Below are positions 18,072-21,736 of a stretch of DNA of 28,348 bases, piece after piece; positions within the stretch are counted from its first letter, which is position 1; the number at the start of each line of letters is the position of its first letter. Both the position numbers and the translations under genes were made by a program. Source of the stretch: an uncultured Candidatus Saccharibacteria bacterium (GTDB lineage Bacteria; Patescibacteriota; Minisyncoccia; Minisyncoccales; CSSED10-335); the NCBI GenBank assembly GCA_964452925.1, contig CAYVNL010000065.1, forward strand, positions 1 through 28,348, read 5' to 3'. A model generated the notes under the pieces. That model had not been told where the DNA came from and made no database searches. It was given only the letters and a program-made list of their open reading frames with translations.

Positions 18072-18506
18072 ATGTCAAAACAGATAAAAAATATCTTAAA
18101 AATACAGATAGCTGCAGGTAAAGCAACTCCAGCACCACCGGTTGGGCCATCTTTGGCTCCTCATGGGATCAATATTGGTGAGTTTTGCCAAAGGTTTAAC
18201 GATCTAACCAAAGAAAAAGATGGGTTCACTATTCCTGTTAAAGTTACTATCTTTGAGGATAGGACATATGAATTAGAAATAAAAAACCCTCCAGCTTCAG
18301 AGCTTTTAAAAAAGGCAGCTGGAGTAGATAAGGGGGCAGGTAAACCAAACAAAGATCAAGTTGGTAGAATTACTAGAAATCAATTAAAAGAAGTAACTGA
18401 AAAGAAGATAGCTGATCTAAACACTGACAATATAGAGATGGCAATGAAAATCATAGAAGGAACGGCCAAGAATATGGGTATTAAAATAGAGGATAGTGAA
18501 AAATAA
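18072..18506 (+). CDS. rplK: 50S ribosomal protein L11
   Basis: AGKATPAPPVGP; FCQRFN; IPVKVTIFEDRT; PPASELLKKAAG; IEGTAKNMG. Confidence 0.98.
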   Translation: MSKQIKNILKIQIAAGKATPAPPVGPSLAPHGINIGEFCQRFNDLTKEKDGFTIPVKVTIFEDRTYELEIKNPPASELLKKAAGVDKGAGKPNKDQVGRITRNQLKEVTEKKIADLNTDNIEMAMKIIEGTAKNMGIKIEDSEK

Positions 18507-19014
18507 AAAAAACAGAAATAAAAGAATTTCGTGGGACGACGCCTTCATGGGCTTAGCTTTGATAATTTCAGAAAGAACTTCTTGTAAATTTTATGCAGTA
18601 GGTGTTGTCGCTATAGATAAAAATAAAAGAATAATTTCTCTTGGTTATAATGGATCAAGCGAAGGAGATGATCATTGTATTGATGTTGGGTGCGCTAAGG
18701 TTGATGGAGTGAATGGTGTTTATAAGCGTTGCCGGGGAATTCATGCAGAGATTAATTCAATAATAAATTCTAGTGACACTACTCGTTTAAAGGGTGCAAC
18801 GATATATACCACCCTTTTTCCTTGCTATGACTGCATGAAAGCACTTAACAATGTTGGTATAAGTGAAATTGTTTATATGGAAGAATATCAAAGAATTAAA
18901 ATTGGAGGAAAAGGTAAAGAAGAAGAAACAGAATCAATTGAATTAGCAAGAAAAAGAAAAATTAAAATTAGAAAATATAATTTAAAAGAAATAGAAATTA
19001 ATATTAAAAGATGA
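18496..19014 (+). CDS. dCMP deaminase (ComEB/DCTD family); GTG start overlapping rplK
   Basis: RISWDDAFM; SLGYNG; HAEINSI; TLFPCYDCMK (zinc motifs HAE and PCxxC intact). Confidence 0.88.
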   Translation: MKNKKNRNKRISWDDAFMGLALIISERTSCKFYAVGVVAIDKNKRIISLGYNGSSEGDDHCIDVGCAKVDGVNGVYKRCRGIHAEINSIINSSDTTRLKGATIYTTLFPCYDCMKALNNVGISEIVYMEEYQRIKIGGKGKEEETESIELARKRKIKIRKYNLKEIEINIKR

Positions 19015-19559
19015 TATTAGGAATAAAAAAAATACTTCGTTTAGTTAAAAAAAATAAGTTAGTTGAAGGTTTGTGTAATAGAGAATTGAATAATCCTGAA
19101 GGTTCAGGATTTGATTTAAGATTGGGTGAAGTTTATAAAATTGAAGGAAAAGGTTTTTTGGGCGTTGAAAATAGAAGCACTCCAAAATCTATATTAATCG
19201 CAAGAAACGAACCAGATAAAAAAGAAATAGACAATCATTTCATATTTCAACCTAATAAATATTATTTAATAAAAACAATCGAAAAAGTTAACTTACCATT
19301 AAATGTTTCGGGTATAGTTTTTCCTAGAACAACGCTTTTTAGGTCAGGAATATCATTTTTAAATGGTATAGTTCAGCCAGGATATTCTGGTGAGCTTAGT
19401 TTTGGAGTTATAAACATGAGTAACGAACCATTGAAAATATCTTTTGGTGCACGAGTTGCTCATATAACATTTCATAAAATATCTGGTAGAGGTAGTCATT
19501 ATAGAGGACAATGGCAAGGAGGAAGAGTTACGACAAAAGGATCTGAAAAGCAAGTTTAA
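19011..19559 (+). CDS. Trimeric dUTPase/dCTP-deaminase-fold protein with non-canonical catalytic motifs
   Basis: GFDLRL; PRTTLFRSG; [11 protein letters not shown]; GARVAHITF; YRGQWQGG. Confidence 0.8.
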
Positions 19560-19560
19560 T

Positions 19561-20550
19561 ATGAATAATAAAGAACAACAATATTTAAATATACTAAAAG
19601 ATATATTAGATAATGGCTTTGATAAGGAAATATTCCTAACGCCAGAAGTTAAAAATCAGTACCTGAAAGAAGAAAGAGAAATTCCCTATATTAGATCTGT
19701 TTTTGGTCGCCAAATAAGATTTGATTTATCTGAGGGGTTTCCATTACTAACAACAAAAAAAGTTTTTTTTAGGGGTATACTCCATGAACTTTTATGGTTT
19801 TTAAGTGGTGATTCTAATATAAAATATTTAGTTGATAACGATGTTCATATATGGGATGAATGGGCATGGAAAAGATACCATAAGCATTGTATTTTAAATT
19901 GTCCAGAAAAAGACGTTACACAAAAAGAATTTATATCAAAAATAAAAGAATTACCAGCAAAAGATAGCTTTGTTAAAGAATGGGGAGATCTAATATACTG
20001 TTATGGTCGTATGTGGAGGCGTTGGCCCGCAAGTGATAGTAGGGAAATCGATCAACTATCGTGGGTCATTGAGGGACTTAAAAACAAGCCATTTCGTAAG
20101 TCTTATGTTGTTTCGGGTTGGAATCCAGATTTTATATATTCAATGGCTTCAGAGAAAAACAAAAATGAAATACCACCCTTTTGTCACACATTGTTTCAAT
20201 TTACGGTTACGGACAAGCTTAATCTTGGAATGTATCAAAGAAGCGCAGATATGTTTTTAGGTGTACCATTCAATATAGCAAGCTATTCTCTCCTATTGTT
20301 AATGGTTGCTCAAGTAACAGGACTAGAGCCAGGCGAATTTGTTCATACATTTGGAGATGCTCATATATATTCAGATCACTTAATTCAGGTAAAAGAACAA
20401 CTATCAAGGGATCCCAAAGAATTTCCTGTAATAGAAATTAACAAGGGAATCAAAGACATCGATTTATTTAAGTTTGAAGATTTTAATTTAAAGAACTATA
20501 ATTATCATCCTCAAATAAAGGCCCCAATAACTAATGTAGGTGGATTTTAA
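19561..20550 (+). CDS. thyA: Thymidylate synthase ThyA, divergent
   Basis: [15 protein letters not shown]; ELLWFL; IWDEW; WNP; PFCH; [18 protein letters not shown]; GDAHIY. Confidence 0.93.
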
Positions 20551-21042
20551 ATGAAAATATCAATAATTGCCGCAATGGCTAAAAATAGGGTAATAGGCGT
20601 TGGTAATTCGTTGCCTTGGAATTTAAAAGAAGACATGGATTACTTTAAAAAGATAACTTTAAACAAAACTGTTATAATGGGTCAAAAGACTTTTGAATCT
20701 ATTGGCAAACCATTGCCAAAAAGAAAAAATATTATTCTTACAAAAGAAAAAGATTATAGTCCAGGTGGTTGTTTTACGGCAAAATCAATAGAAGATTCTT
20801 TGAAAACGATTAACCCAGAAGAAGAAGTTATGATTATTGGTGGCGCCTCTGTTTATAAGCAATTTTTACCACTAGCAGACAAAATGTACTTAACAATTAT
20901 AGATAAAGATTTTGATGGAGATGTTTTTTTTCCAGATTTTGACTATAATGAATGGAAAGAGGTTTCAAGGGTTGATAAAGAAAACAAGAACCTTAACTTG
21001 AAGTATAGTTTTATAATTTTAAAAAAAATAAAAATCTGCTGA
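20551..21042 (+). CDS. folA: Dihydrofolate reductase
   Basis: IAAMAKNRVIG..NSLPWNLKEDMDYFK; VIMGQKTFESIGKPLPKR; IIGGASVY; GDVFFP. Confidence 0.97.
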   Translation: MKISIIAAMAKNRVIGVGNSLPWNLKEDMDYFKKITLNKTVIMGQKTFESIGKPLPKRKNIILTKEKDYSPGGCFTAKSIEDSLKTINPEEEVMIIGGASVYKQFLPLADKMYLTIIDKDFDGDVFFPDFDYNEWKEVSRVDKENKNLNLKYSFIILKKIKIC

Positions 21043-21073: not shown

Positions 21074-21736
21074 ATGAACAAGATTGCAAAAGTTATAGAT
21101 CACACAGATATTAGGTCAGAAGCTACAATTAAGGATATTAAAAAAAGATGTAATGAAGCTAAAAAATATTCTTTTCATGGGGTTTGTGTTAACCCTAAGT
21201 TTACATCTCTCGTTAGTAGAGAGCTAAAAGGAACCAATGTTAAAACAGTTGTATTAATAGATCCTCCAATGGGTCTTTCAAGTCATAAAGATAGGTTGAT
21301 TGCTTGCAAGAAAGCTAAAAAAGATGGAGCGGATGAGTTAGACATAGTTCTTAACATAATAGATGTAAAGTATGATCGCTATGACAAGGTTTTAAAAGAC
21401 CTAAAACCTTTATGCTCTATACTTCCAACTAAAGTAATTATAGGTTCTGGATTTCTTACAGACGAAGAAATTAAAAAAGTTTCAGTTATTGTTAAAAAAT
21501 CAGGAGCTTTTTGCATTAAAACAGCTACAACAAAAGATCCTTTAGAAAATAGAGAAATGAAAGAAAAAGTATGGCATCTTAAACTAATGAAAGAATATGC
21601 ACCAGGATTAGTAGTTAAGGCTTCTGGTAAGATAAAAACAATAAGTGACATTAAAAGATGCATAAAAGCTGGTGCTGGAATTGTAGGCACTAGTTCTGGG
21701 GTTCAAATTATGAAAGAGATTTTATCTAATAAATGA
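21074..21736 (+). CDS. deoC: Deoxyribose-phosphate aldolase-like class I aldolase, divergent
   Basis: IDHT; VCV; GADELDIV; KVII; IKT; VKASG; GTSSG. Confidence 0.85.
   Translation: MNKIAKVIDHTDIRSEATIKDIKKRCNEAKKYSFHGVCVNPKFTSLVSRELKGTNVKTVVLIDPPMGLSSHKDRLIACKKAKKDGADELDIVLNIIDVKYDRYDKVLKDLKPLCSILPTKVIIGSGFLTDEEIKKVSVIVKKSGAFCIKTATTKDPLENREMKEKVWHLKLMKEYAPGLVVKASGKIKTISDIKRCIKAGAGIVGTSSGVQIMKEILSNK

What the first reader, a model, noticed from the sequence alone, without database searches (positions are those of the whole stretch)
19011..19559. dUTPase/dCTP-deaminase-fold protein lacking both known catalytic acids
Seen: motif 3 reads [15 protein letters not shown]122 sits at the dUTPase catalytic Asp (G-x-I-D-x-x-Y-x-G-E), and G132 sits at the Glu ten residues later that dCTP deaminases need. 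Motif 2 RS is RT and motif 4 RIAQ is RVAH, while motif 1 (GFDL) and a dcd-like YxGxxQ tail are intact. Inference: neither standard reaction is expected, yet the ORF is intact and translationally coupled. It may have new chemistry, be a nucleotide sensor or allosteric partner, or be a regulatory pseudoenzyme (trimeric dUTPases have known signalling roles with Stl repressors).
Basis: partly seen in the sequence, partly recalled or inferred. Interest (0 to 1): 0.65.

Follow-up and report, generated by a model that had tools for sequence, protein, structure and literature searches.

The report
dUTPase-like enzyme without its catalytic aspartate
A small, strongly conserved protein of ultra-small (Patescibacteria) bacteria has the fold of the enzyme that makes dUMP for thymidine synthesis and sits where that enzyme should be, but it lacks the aspartate that all known versions need, so it probably works with different catalytic residues.

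Summary
ORF 19011-19559 (+) encodes a 182-aa protein of the dCTP-deaminase/dUTPase fold. It has Gln122 at the motif-III Asp, Gly132 at the Dcd Glu and His151 at the motif-IV Gln.

It is neither a relic nor a one-off:
- More than 2,600 homologues were found.
- Median dN/dS among orthologues is 0.066.
- It is as conserved as ThyA and NusG.
- It lies in a fixed operon, dCMP deaminase-X-thyA-folA(-tmk), in 80 species genomes.
- More distant orthologues always precede ThyA or ThyX.

The missing Glu is ancestral, because the clade descends from Dcd-fold dUTPases that never had it. Only the Asp loss is anomalous.

In 19 of 21 Patescibacteria genomes that carry it, no canonical dUTPase was found. Each of the 21 has a Dcd paralogue, a nearby dCMP deaminase, or another cytidine/dCMP-deaminase-family hit. 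The paralogue itself lacks the Asp in five of the ten read. So the dNTP-to-dNMP step appears to fall to this protein.

Loss of Asp122 covaries with His151: His in 102 of 105 sequences, Asn only in the two that keep Asp. Glu30 and Arg55 are invariant.

Best reading (about 50%): an active dUTP/dCTP pyrophosphatase with relocated catalytic residues. Main rival: a non-catalytic dNTP-binding partner. No activity was tested. It is a new variant of a known kind.

The parts
19011..19559 (+). Gene X: a 182-aa Dcd-fold, dUTPase-like protein (P0001). It lacks the motif-III Asp and the Dcd Glu.
   Evidence: ORF and translation. Pfam DCD 82.5 bits and dUTPase 40.6 bits. Model and fold match. 2,669 homologues.
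19098..19100 (+). Glu30 codon. Glu30 is invariant in the clade and is a candidate relocated carboxylate in the motif-I region.
   Evidence: Invariant in A1, in A2 and in 105 orthologues. Canonical relatives have Gln here. Its position relative to motif I is inferred from PMC3905902.
19173..19181 (+). Arg55-x-Thr57 in a family-typical loop.
   Evidence: R55 is invariant and T57 nearly so. An ERKxP counterpart is present in solved chain 9w59.
19326..19343 (+). Motif II, R106-T-T-x-x-R111, the phosphate-binding motif (RSSxxR in relatives).
   Evidence: Invariant R106, T108 and R111. Aligned to RSSLAR in 9ln0.
19374..19376 (+). Gln122 codon, at the position of the catalytic Asp of motif III.
   Evidence: Alignments. 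In 105 orthologues this position is Q in 76, the rest mostly A, S, N or H (single cases of T, P, G), and D in only 2.
19404..19406 (+). Gly132 codon, at the position of the Dcd catalytic Glu.
   Evidence: Aligned to the Glu in the T-L-E-L stretch of 4xjc. Gly or Ala throughout the clade and in its Asp-bearing basal relatives.
19461..19463 (+). His151 codon, at the motif-IV Gln position that contacts the alpha-phosphate in dUTPases.
   Evidence: His in 102 of 105 orthologues. Asn occurs only in the two that keep Asp122. Role of the Gln: PMC3905902.
19500..19526 (+). C-terminal lid, Y164-x-G-Q-W-Q-G-G-R172, a Dcd-type triphosphate-closing tail.
   Evidence: Invariant in 105 orthologues. Aligned to the Y-R-G-N-Y-Q-G stretch of 9ln0. 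Low pLDDT, as expected for a mobile lid.
18496..19014 (+). dCMP deaminase gene, upstream, overlapping X by 4 nt.
   Evidence: Pfam PF00383, 2.4e-20. Upstream of X in 75 of 80 species loci.
19561..20550 (+). Thymidylate synthase ThyA gene, starting 1 nt after the stop of X.
   Evidence: Pfam PF00303, 4.5e-94. ThyA or ThyX follows X in almost all loci.
20551..21042 (+). Dihydrofolate reductase FolA gene.
   Evidence: Pfam PF00186, 1e-59. Found in the operon in 56 loci.
21074..21736 (+). ORF provisionally read as deoxyribose-phosphate aldolase (DeoC). It belongs to the operon here but is not a conserved member.
   Evidence: ORF. The DeoC name was never tested against a family library and is a provisional label. 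Found in only 1 of 80 related loci.

Best explanation
X is most likely an active pyrimidine deoxynucleoside-triphosphate pyrophosphatase. It would hydrolyse dUTP, and probably dCTP, to the monophosphate plus pyrophosphate. That would feed dUMP to the thymidylate synthase encoded immediately downstream, either directly or through the dCMP deaminase encoded immediately upstream.

X descends from the Dcd-fold ('archaeal-type') dUTPases, which never had the deaminase Glu.

Shown:
- The nucleotide-binding apparatus is kept: the motif-I Asp35, motif-II Arg/Thr, the deoxyribose-stacking Tyr125, the motif-IV Arg148 and the C-terminal lid.
- The motif-III Asp has been lost.
- His was fixed at the motif-IV residue that touches the alpha-phosphate.
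- Glu was fixed two residues before motif I.

Inferred:
- His151, Glu30 or both have taken over activation of the attacking water or stabilisation of the transition state.
- Position 122 has therefore become free to vary.

No activity was measured.
For: 1. Selection. Median dN/dS is 0.066 over 265 orthologue pairs. Mean identity to the window's own proteins across 80 species loci is 65% for X, against 68% for ThyA, 68% for NusG, 54% for RplK, 52% for GatB and 44% for FolA.

2. Context. The order nusG-rplK-rplA-dCMP deaminase-X-thyA-folA(-tmk)-gatB recurs in most of the 80 loci. Orthologues at 45-58% identity precede ThyA or a long ThyX, two unrelated enzymes that both use dUMP.

3. The dUTPase slot is vacant. 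In the window's genome (572 kb, 94.8% complete) X is the only dUTPase-superfamily hit. No MazG and no dimeric dUTPase were found. The only ribonucleotide reductase found is class III; by established knowledge this class reduces the triphosphates. No separate Cmk or dNK was found to supply dCMP.

4. Inventory of the 21 X-bearing Patescibacteria genomes sampled.
- A canonical Dut is present in only 2, G118 and G047.
- Seven have a dCMP deaminase next to X and no Dcd paralogue.
- Ten have a Dcd paralogue.
- Of the other four, one (G170) has a PF00383 hit about 2 kb from thyA on another contig and three have only an uncharacterised or fragmentary PF00383 hit.

5. The Dcd paralogues. All ten that were read keep the deaminase Glu. 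Five of them have Asn or Ser instead of the motif-III Asp. If the Asp is needed for hydrolysis, as in canonical enzymes, they can only make dUTP.

6. Residues. Phosphate- and sugar-binding residues and the lid are invariant in 105 orthologues. His151 is present in 102 of 105, and Asn151 only with Asp122. Glu30 and Arg55 are invariant.

7. Order of events. The basal grade of the tree carries Asp122 and Gln151, with Gln, Glu, Cys or Gly at position 30. Glu30 also occurs together with Asp122. That is the order expected if a second carboxylate arose before the first was lost.

8. Structural roles in canonical dUTPases. The motif-IV Gln hydrogen-bonds the alpha-phosphate. The catalytic Asp is held by the backbone NH of the first motif-I residue, which lies two residues after the Glu30 position (PMC3905902).
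Against: - The Asp is described as strictly conserved in trimeric dUTPases. Changing it to Asn in the human enzyme drops kcat below detection while binding is kept (PMC4827122; PMC3905902). Gln122 therefore predicts an inactive enzyme by the canonical mechanism.
- No trimer model or coordinates could be examined. The proximity of Glu30 and His151 to the attacking water is inferred from sequence position only.
- Two genomes, G118 and G047, carry a canonical Dut directly next to X. That argues for a non-redundant role there.
- In the wider family, which is partly in phage-like contigs, His151 is not conserved.
- Some Dcd paralogues could be bifunctional, which would make a separate dUTPase unnecessary.
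- Absence of genes in metagenome-assembled genomes is never certain.
Confidence: 0.5

Rival explanations
1. X is a non-catalytic pseudoenzyme. It still binds a pyrimidine dNTP (dUTP, dCTP or dTTP) and acts as a sensor, allosteric partner or buffer for the dTMP pathway, for example by modulating thymidylate synthase or dCMP deaminase.
For: - The canonical general base is gone, and Asp-to-Asn kills catalysis but not binding in human dUTPase.
- The binding residues and the lid are invariant.
- Position 122 varies freely across the clade.
- A canonical Dut sits next to X in G118 and G047.
- X is tightly coupled in translation to its neighbours.
- Established precedent exists for inactive dUTPase-fold proteins with other roles, such as herpesvirus dUTPase-related proteins and the BIV protein (title of PMC4261571, listed).
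Against: - The constant neighbour is either ThyA or ThyX, two unrelated folds, so a conserved protein-protein partnership is unlikely.
- In 19 of 21 carrier genomes no canonical dUTPase was found.
- In the five genomes whose Dcd paralogue lacks the Asp, no other gene found could turn dUTP into dUMP.
- The strict His151/Asp122 covariation looks like catalytic compensation.
Confidence: 0.22
2. X is specifically a dCTP pyrophosphatase. It would convert the dCTP made by the class III reductase to dCMP for the adjacent dCMP deaminase. It would be a functional analogue of phage T4 dCTPase, but built on a different fold.
For: - The operon order is dCMP deaminase-X-thyA in 75 of 80 loci.
- The window's genome has class III RNR only, and no Cmk or dNK was found to supply dCMP.
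- Coexistence with a true Dut in G118 and G047 would then not be redundant.
- Gly132 leaves room at C4 of the base (inference).
Against: Ten of 21 carrier genomes have a Dcd paralogue, and in most of them no dCMP deaminase was found. There dCMP would be a dead end and dUTP hydrolysis is the step needed.
Confidence: 0.13
3. X catalyses different chemistry on a pyrimidine deoxynucleotide. Possibilities include covalent His151-dNMP catalysis or nucleotidyl transfer, cleavage at another phosphate, or action on dTTP or a modified dNTP.
For: - His sits at the alpha-phosphate position.
- Gly sits where the base-facing Glu lies in Dcd.
- X falls below every NCBIfam equivalog cut-off.
- Related clades occur in phage-like contigs, where modified bases are common.
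Against: - The operon holds only standard dTMP-pathway genes.
- No PADLOC family matched.
- No close relative was found in phage records or viral contigs.
- The simpler pyrophosphatase reading explains the gene inventories.
Confidence: 0.1
4. X is a decaying remnant of a dUTPase or Dcd gene with no function.
For: Loss of both textbook catalytic residues.
Against: - dN/dS of 0.03-0.08.
- 182-aa length kept in most homologues.
- Invariant binding residues.
- Fixed operon position across many candidate phyla.
Confidence: 0.01

Closest known systems
Dcd-fold ('archaeal-type') monofunctional dUTPases, e.g. Thermococcus pacificus dUTPase (8y1w), P45 (9ln0), PDB 9w59, Sulfolobus tokodaii dUTPase (2yzj/2zdc); NCBIfam NF002598
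   Same: - Same fold, TM 0.64-0.82.
- Best sequence matches in the PDB.
- No deaminase Glu.
- RSSxxR-type motif II, stacking aromatic in motif III, and a Y-x-G-x-[YW]-Q-G tail.
- The Arg55 loop has an ERKxP counterpart in 9w59.
- S. tokodaii also has His at the His151 position.
- The X clade is nested among Asp-bearing relatives of this kind.
   Different: - The motif-III Asp is replaced by Gln here, and by Ala, Ser, Asn or His elsewhere in the clade.
- Gln30 is replaced by an invariant Glu.
- His is fixed at motif IV.
- The score of 72.3 is far below the family cut-off of 130.
dCTP deaminase Dcd and bifunctional dCTP deaminase-dUTPase (E. coli 1xs1, M. tuberculosis 2qlp, B. halodurans 4xjc, M. 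jannaschii 1ogh); TIGR02274
   Same: - Fold and length.
- N-terminal helix, motifs I, II and IV, and the C-terminal lid built from the neighbouring subunit type of tail.
- Genomic position next to thyA, as for canonical Dcd in other Patescibacteria.
   Different: - Gly132 replaces the catalytic Glu, and Gln122 replaces the Asp.
- The score of 82.3 is below the cut-off of 92.8.
- X coexists with true Dcd paralogues in ten genomes.
Classical homotrimeric dUTPase Dut (PF00692, TIGR00576)
   Same: - Jelly-roll core.
- Motif III spacing G-x-[IV]-x-x-x-Y-x-G-E fits exactly, apart from the Asp.
- Presumed role of supplying dUMP to thymidylate synthase.
   Different: - No Asp.
- No P-loop-like motif V.
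- Extra N-terminal helix and loop.
- 33.8 bits against a cut-off of 102.55.
Inactive dUTPase-fold proteins of viruses (herpesvirus dUTPase-related proteins; bovine immunodeficiency virus dUTPase-related protein, PMC4261571)
   Same: dUTPase fold with loss of catalytic residues, yet retained under selection.
   Different: - Those are viral proteins with non-metabolic roles.
- X is a cellular gene embedded in a dTMP-synthesis operon.
- X keeps all nucleotide-binding residues.
- This resemblance comes from established knowledge and a paper title only. It was not tested here.

Membership tests
dUTPase-like superfamily, Dcd-type fold (Pfam PF22769) | Significant match to the family model above the gathering score | tested here: met
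   82.5 bits against a cut-off of 27, E = 4.5e-23, covering residues 2-156.
dUTPase-like superfamily, Dcd-type fold (Pfam PF22769) | Jelly-roll fold with N-terminal helix, as in solved Dcd-family structures | tested here: met
   AlphaFold model with pLDDT 81.9. Foldseek to 4xjc, 2qlp, 8y1w, 2zdc and 1xs1 gives TM 0.64-0.82 at probability 1.00.
dCTP deaminase (TIGR02274 equivalog) | Score above the curated equivalog cut-off | tested here: not met
   82.3 bits against 92.8.
dCTP deaminase (TIGR02274 equivalog) | Catalytic Glu (E. coli Glu138) | tested here: not met
   Gly132 aligns to the Glu of 4xjc. The position is Gly or Ala in all but one of 105 orthologues (the exception is Thr).
dCTP deaminase (TIGR02274 equivalog) | Ser/Arg of the RSSxxR motif (E. 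coli Ser111, Arg115) | tested here: met
   R106-T107-T108-x-x-R111. The Ser-to-Thr change is conservative, and the residues are invariant.
Dcd-fold dUTPase (NF002598 equivalog) | Score above the curated cut-off | tested here: not met
   72.3 bits against 130.
Dcd-fold dUTPase (NF002598 equivalog) | Motif-III Asp that orients the attacking water | tested here: not met
   Gln122 aligns to the Asp of 9ln0, 8y1w, 9w59 and 2yzj.
Dcd-fold dUTPase (NF002598 equivalog) | dUTP hydrolysis to dUMP and PPi | not testable with these tools
   This needs an enzyme assay. Gene inventories suggest the activity is required of X.
Classical trimeric dUTPase (TIGR00576 / PF00692) | Five conserved motifs, including the motif-III Asp and the P-loop-like motif V | tested here: not met
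   - The Pfam domain is matched over profile positions 23-104 only (40.6 bits).
- TIGR00576 scores 33.8 against a cut-off of 102.55.
- The Asp is absent, and the tail is Dcd-like rather than motif V.
Anti-phage defence nucleotide-depletion enzymes (PADLOC) | Match to any PADLOC model | tested here: not met
   No family matched X or seven relatives.

The most novel reading that the evidence does not exclude
X represents a second catalytic solution within the trimeric dUTPase fold. Hydrolysis or transfer at the alpha-phosphate would be driven by a motif-IV histidine, possibly through a covalent His-dNMP intermediate as in HIT enzymes, together with a motif-I glutamate from the neighbouring subunit. 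That would make the 'strictly conserved' aspartate dispensable.
Probability: 0.2. Interest if true: 0.75.

Novelty: new variant of a known kind. Interest (0 to 1): 0.58.

Why it matters
The motif-III aspartate is treated as the invariant catalytic residue of all trimeric dUTPase-fold hydrolases, from viruses to man. Here a large clade under strong selection has lost it, yet appears to be the only candidate for the dUTP (or dCTP) to monophosphate step of thymidylate synthesis in most genomes that carry it.

If the protein is active, it would be a natural example of catalytic-residue migration in a textbook enzyme. It would also change how dUTPase genes are called in Patescibacteria, where NCBI records leave it as 'hypothetical protein' and JGI labels it 'deoxycytidine triphosphate deaminase'.

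If it is inactive, these minimal cells make dTMP without a recognisable dUTPase and keep a dedicated dNTP-binding protein in the operon. That would be equally worth knowing.

Tried and rejected
- **PADLOC scan.** X and seven relatives matched nothing, so the defence-system reading was dropped.
- **Phage collection.** tblastn found only canonical Dcd/Dut proteins below 30% identity.
- **IMG/VR scan.** The orthologue alignment found no relative. The broader alignment was too diverse to search with.
- **Literature.** Searches on dUTPase with Patescibacteria, dCTP deaminase-like with thymidylate synthase, dUTPase-like with thyX, and CPR with TS and dCMP deaminase found no description of this clade. 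One review id was not held.
- **Co-adaptation with ThyA.** This was rejected. The unusual ThyA motifs also occur in Patescibacteria whose thyA sits next to a canonical Dcd.
- **Short contigs.** The contigs for three representatives were too short to give more than the immediate neighbours.
- **Coordinates.** Distances from Glu30 and His151 to the active site could not be measured, and no multimer prediction is offered.
- **Cluster names.** Names for distant members were uninformative.
- **Motif-IV residue as a marker.** Using this residue (Gln versus Ala/Ser) to tell mono- from bifunctional Dcd was considered but not relied on, because it did not track the presence of Dut in genomes without X.
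Full report
**1. The observation**

The window has 30% G+C. Around the finding it encodes, on the + strand, gyrB, secE, nusG, rplK, a dCMP deaminase (18496-19014), the ORF in question (19011-19559, here called X), thyA (19561-20550), folA (20551-21042), an ORF provisionally read as deoC, and gatB. The deoC name was not tested against a family library.

X is 182 aa long.
- G33-F-D35-L
- R106-T-T-x-x-R111
- G119-I-V-Q122-P-G-Y125-S-G-E128, with G132 four residues on
- R148-V-A-H151
- Y164-R-G-Q-W-Q169-G-G-R172

HMMER alignments to solved structures put Q122 on the motif-III Asp, G132 on the catalytic Glu of the B. halodurans bifunctional enzyme, and H151 on the motif-IV Gln. The start of X overlaps the deaminase stop as ATGA. 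The thyA ATG lies one base after the X stop.

**2. Fold and family**

- Pfam gives DCD (PF22769) at 4.5e-23 and dUTPase (PF00692) at 2.6e-10.
- Every NCBIfam equivalog is missed: Dcd 82.3 against 92.8, Dcd-fold dUTPase 72.3 against 130, classical Dut 33.8 against 102.55.
- An AlphaFold model (pLDDT 81.9, with a disordered C-terminal lid) matches Dcd-family structures at TM 0.64-0.82. It matches classical dUTPases less well.

X is therefore a member of the Dcd-type branch of the dUTPase superfamily, but of none of its three characterised families.

**3. It is a real, selected gene**

- 2,669 homologues were found. The nearest are 64-71% identical and nearly all 182 aa long. They come from Falkowbacteria, Parcubacteria, Moranbacteria, Nealsonbacteria, Komeilibacteria and Gribaldobacteria.
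- Among 58 full-length orthologues, 265 pairs with unsaturated dS give a median dN/dS of 0.066.
- Across 80 species loci, mean identity to the window's own proteins is 65% for X. That compares with ThyA 68%, NusG 68%, RplK 54%, GatB 52%, RplA 48% and FolA 44%.

The relic hypothesis is refuted.

**4. Context**

In most of the 80 loci the order is nusG-rplK-rplA-dCMP deaminase-X-thyA-folA(-tmk)-gatB, with small variants. Orthologues at 45-58% identity from 21 of 201 sampled Patescibacteria genomes also lie immediately before a thymidylate synthase. That synthase is either ThyA or a long (445-530 aa) ThyX.

The upstream neighbour varies. It can be dCMP deaminase, a Dcd paralogue with or without Tmk, a canonical Dut, or a degenerate Dut-like ORF. 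The one constant partner is an enzyme that consumes dUMP. Because ThyA and ThyX are unrelated folds, the link is more likely metabolic than physical.

**5. Gene inventories**

The window's genome is 572 kb in 98 contigs and 94.8% complete.

| Feature | Result |
|---|---|
| dUTPase-superfamily hits | X only |
| MazG | not found |
| Dimeric dUTPase | not found |
| Class I/II ribonucleotide reductase | not found |
| Class III ribonucleotide reductase | present |
| Ndk | not found |
| Separate Cmk or dNK | not found |
| Tmk | present |

Class III reductases act on triphosphates (established knowledge). Deoxypyrimidines therefore arise as dCTP and dUTP, and a triphosphate-to-monophosphate step is needed before either dCMP deaminase or ThyA can act.

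Across the 21 X-bearing genomes:
- A canonical Dut is present only in G118 and G047, where it is adjacent to X.
- The 127-aa 'Dut' next to X in G089 and G012 lacks all the motifs.
- Seven genomes have an adjacent dCMP deaminase and no Dcd paralogue.
- Ten have a Dcd paralogue.
- Of the other four, G170 has a cytidine/dCMP-deaminase-family (PF00383) hit about 2 kb from thyA on another contig. G118, G047 and G096 have only uncharacterised or fragmentary PF00383 hits, so a deaminating step is not established for those three.
- All ten Dcd paralogues that were read keep the deaminase Glu. Five of them (G040, G089, G111, G012, G124) have Asn or Ser at the motif-III Asp. If the Asp is needed for hydrolysis, as in canonical enzymes, they can deaminate dCTP to dUTP but not hydrolyse it.

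In those genomes the only candidate for dUTP to dUMP is X. Other Patescibacteria have a fully canonical Dcd (Asp, Glu, Gln) next to thyA.

The sampled genomes are related, and absences in metagenome-assembled genomes are uncertain. One sampled genome (G154) is unpublished. It enters only the tallies, and no individual claim rests on it.

**6. Residue evolution**

In 105 orthologues of the thymidylate-synthase-linked clade:
- Invariant, or all but one or two sequences: E30, D35, R55, T57, R106, T108, R111, Y125, R148, Y164, Q167, W168, Q169, R172.
- Position 122: Q in 76 sequences, the rest mostly A, S, N or H (single cases of T, P, G). It is D in only two.
- Position 151: His in 102 sequences. 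It is Asn in exactly the two sequences that keep Asp122, and Phe once.
- Position 132: Gly or Ala.

In a maximum-likelihood tree with canonical Patescibacteria Dcd as outgroup (midpoint root, many unresolved forks, bootstrap not fully settled), the basal grade carries Asp122, Gln151 and no Glu at 132, which is the make-up of Dcd-fold dUTPases. Position 30 there is Gln, Glu, Cys or Gly. The Glu30 clade is nested within this grade with support 100/94. Glu30 also occurs together with Asp122 in some members.

So the missing Dcd Glu is ancestral and unremarkable. The Asp loss is derived, and it is accompanied by His at motif IV and preceded by Glu at position 30.

In the wider Glu30/Arg55 family, positions 122 and 151 both vary. 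Three of the four distant members examined lie in phage-like contigs (Atlas hint). The fourth, P0190, lies in a cellular-looking context beside a sensor histidine kinase. That family may not share one function.

**7. Mechanism**

In canonical dUTPases the attacking water is held by the motif-III Asp carboxylate and a main-chain carbonyl. The Asp is positioned by the sugar 3'-OH and by the backbone NH of the first motif-I residue of the neighbouring subunit. The motif-IV Gln and the motif-II Ser hydrogen-bond the alpha-phosphate and stabilise the transition state (PMC3905902). Asp-to-Asn abolishes turnover but not binding (PMC4827122).

Mapped onto X:
- His151 occupies the alpha-phosphate-contacting position.
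- Glu30 lies two residues before the motif-I residue (Ser32) whose NH would face position 122.

Either could activate water or stabilise charge. This step is inference. I could not obtain coordinates or a trimer model.

**8. Verdict**

The best-supported reading, at about 0.5, is an active dUTP/dCTP pyrophosphatase with relocated catalytic residues that supplies the downstream thymidylate synthase. Rivals:
- a dNTP-binding pseudoenzyme or sensor (0.22)
- a dCTP-specific pyrophosphatase (0.13)
- other chemistry (0.10)
- a relic (0.01)

Its conclusion that no standard reaction is expected is not favoured. The Stl-type signalling idea has no support.

No paper describing this clade was found. It is a new variant of a known kind. 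NCBI records currently leave it as 'hypothetical protein', and JGI labels it 'deoxycytidine triphosphate deaminase'.

**9. Earlier notes of this scan**

Note e1-5291075 described the same five-gene module. The synteny analysis here confirms the core (deaminase-X-thyA-folA) but shows that deoC is not a conserved member: it was found in 1 of 80 loci.

Note e1-5291077 described unusual ThyA motifs. These are lineage-wide in Patescibacteria and also occur beside canonical Dcd, so they are not co-adapted with X.

Noticed in passing
window 19561-20550; loci L111-L114, L120-L125: The ThyA here lacks the DRTGTG segment, reads P-F-R-K-S where E. coli has P-D-S-R-R, and ends in V-G-G-F. The same make-up is found in many Patescibacteria, including genomes whose thyA sits next to a fully canonical Dcd. 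It is therefore a lineage trait and is not linked to X.
   Followed up: partly
L131 (G040), L132 (G089), L133 (G111), L135 (G012), L134 (G124): The Dcd paralogues in X-bearing genomes keep the deaminase Glu. At the motif-III Asp they have Asn (H-V-N-P-G-W) or Ser. This is a second, independent loss of that Asp in the same genomes.
   Followed up: partly
L017:2501-2881 (-) (G089) and L024 about 2465-2845 (G012): A 127-aa ORF between rplA and X matches Pfam dUTPase weakly (33.6 bits). It lacks motifs I, II, III (no Asp, no Tyr), IV and V, so it is a degenerate dUTPase-fold protein of unknown role.
   Followed up: partly
L018:5219-7115 (G118): Two ORFs are inserted between X and ThyX. One is unknown (303 aa). 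The other (334 aa) carries a G-G-P-P-C-Q-type cytosine-5 DNA methyltransferase motif. This looks like a restriction-modification pair inserted into the operon.
   Followed up: no
L029-L031, L035, L046, L048, L057, L061 and others: Records titled 'uncultured Gammaproteobacteria', 'Bdellovibrionales' or 'Nanoarchaeia archaeon' carry the Patescibacteria-type operon at 62-68% identity. Their taxon labels are probably wrong.
   Followed up: no
G000 contigs C5:8950-9897 and C68:2-796: The class III ribonucleotide reductase gene is split across two contig ends. A third short NrdD-like C-terminal fragment lies at C48:10552-10722.
   Followed up: no
L108, L110 and a JGI contig without DNA (P0130, P0241, P0197): More distant members of the Glu30/Arg55 family lie among many small unannotated ORFs. 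Their neighbours include a Dam methylase and a Mu-like protease, so the contigs are probably phage genomes.
   Followed up: partly
L007, L017-L019, L021, L022, L027: The ThyX encoded after X in several genomes is unusually long (445-530 aa). Its Thy1 domain is matched only in the C-terminal part of the protein in the two full-length examples scanned, while in the third (L003) the match lies at residues 54-264.
   Followed up: no
P0209 (348 aa): This is a natural tandem of two X-like domains in one polypeptide. The first domain is degenerate. The second has Asp at motif III and the Q-W-R-G-G-R tail.
   Followed up: no
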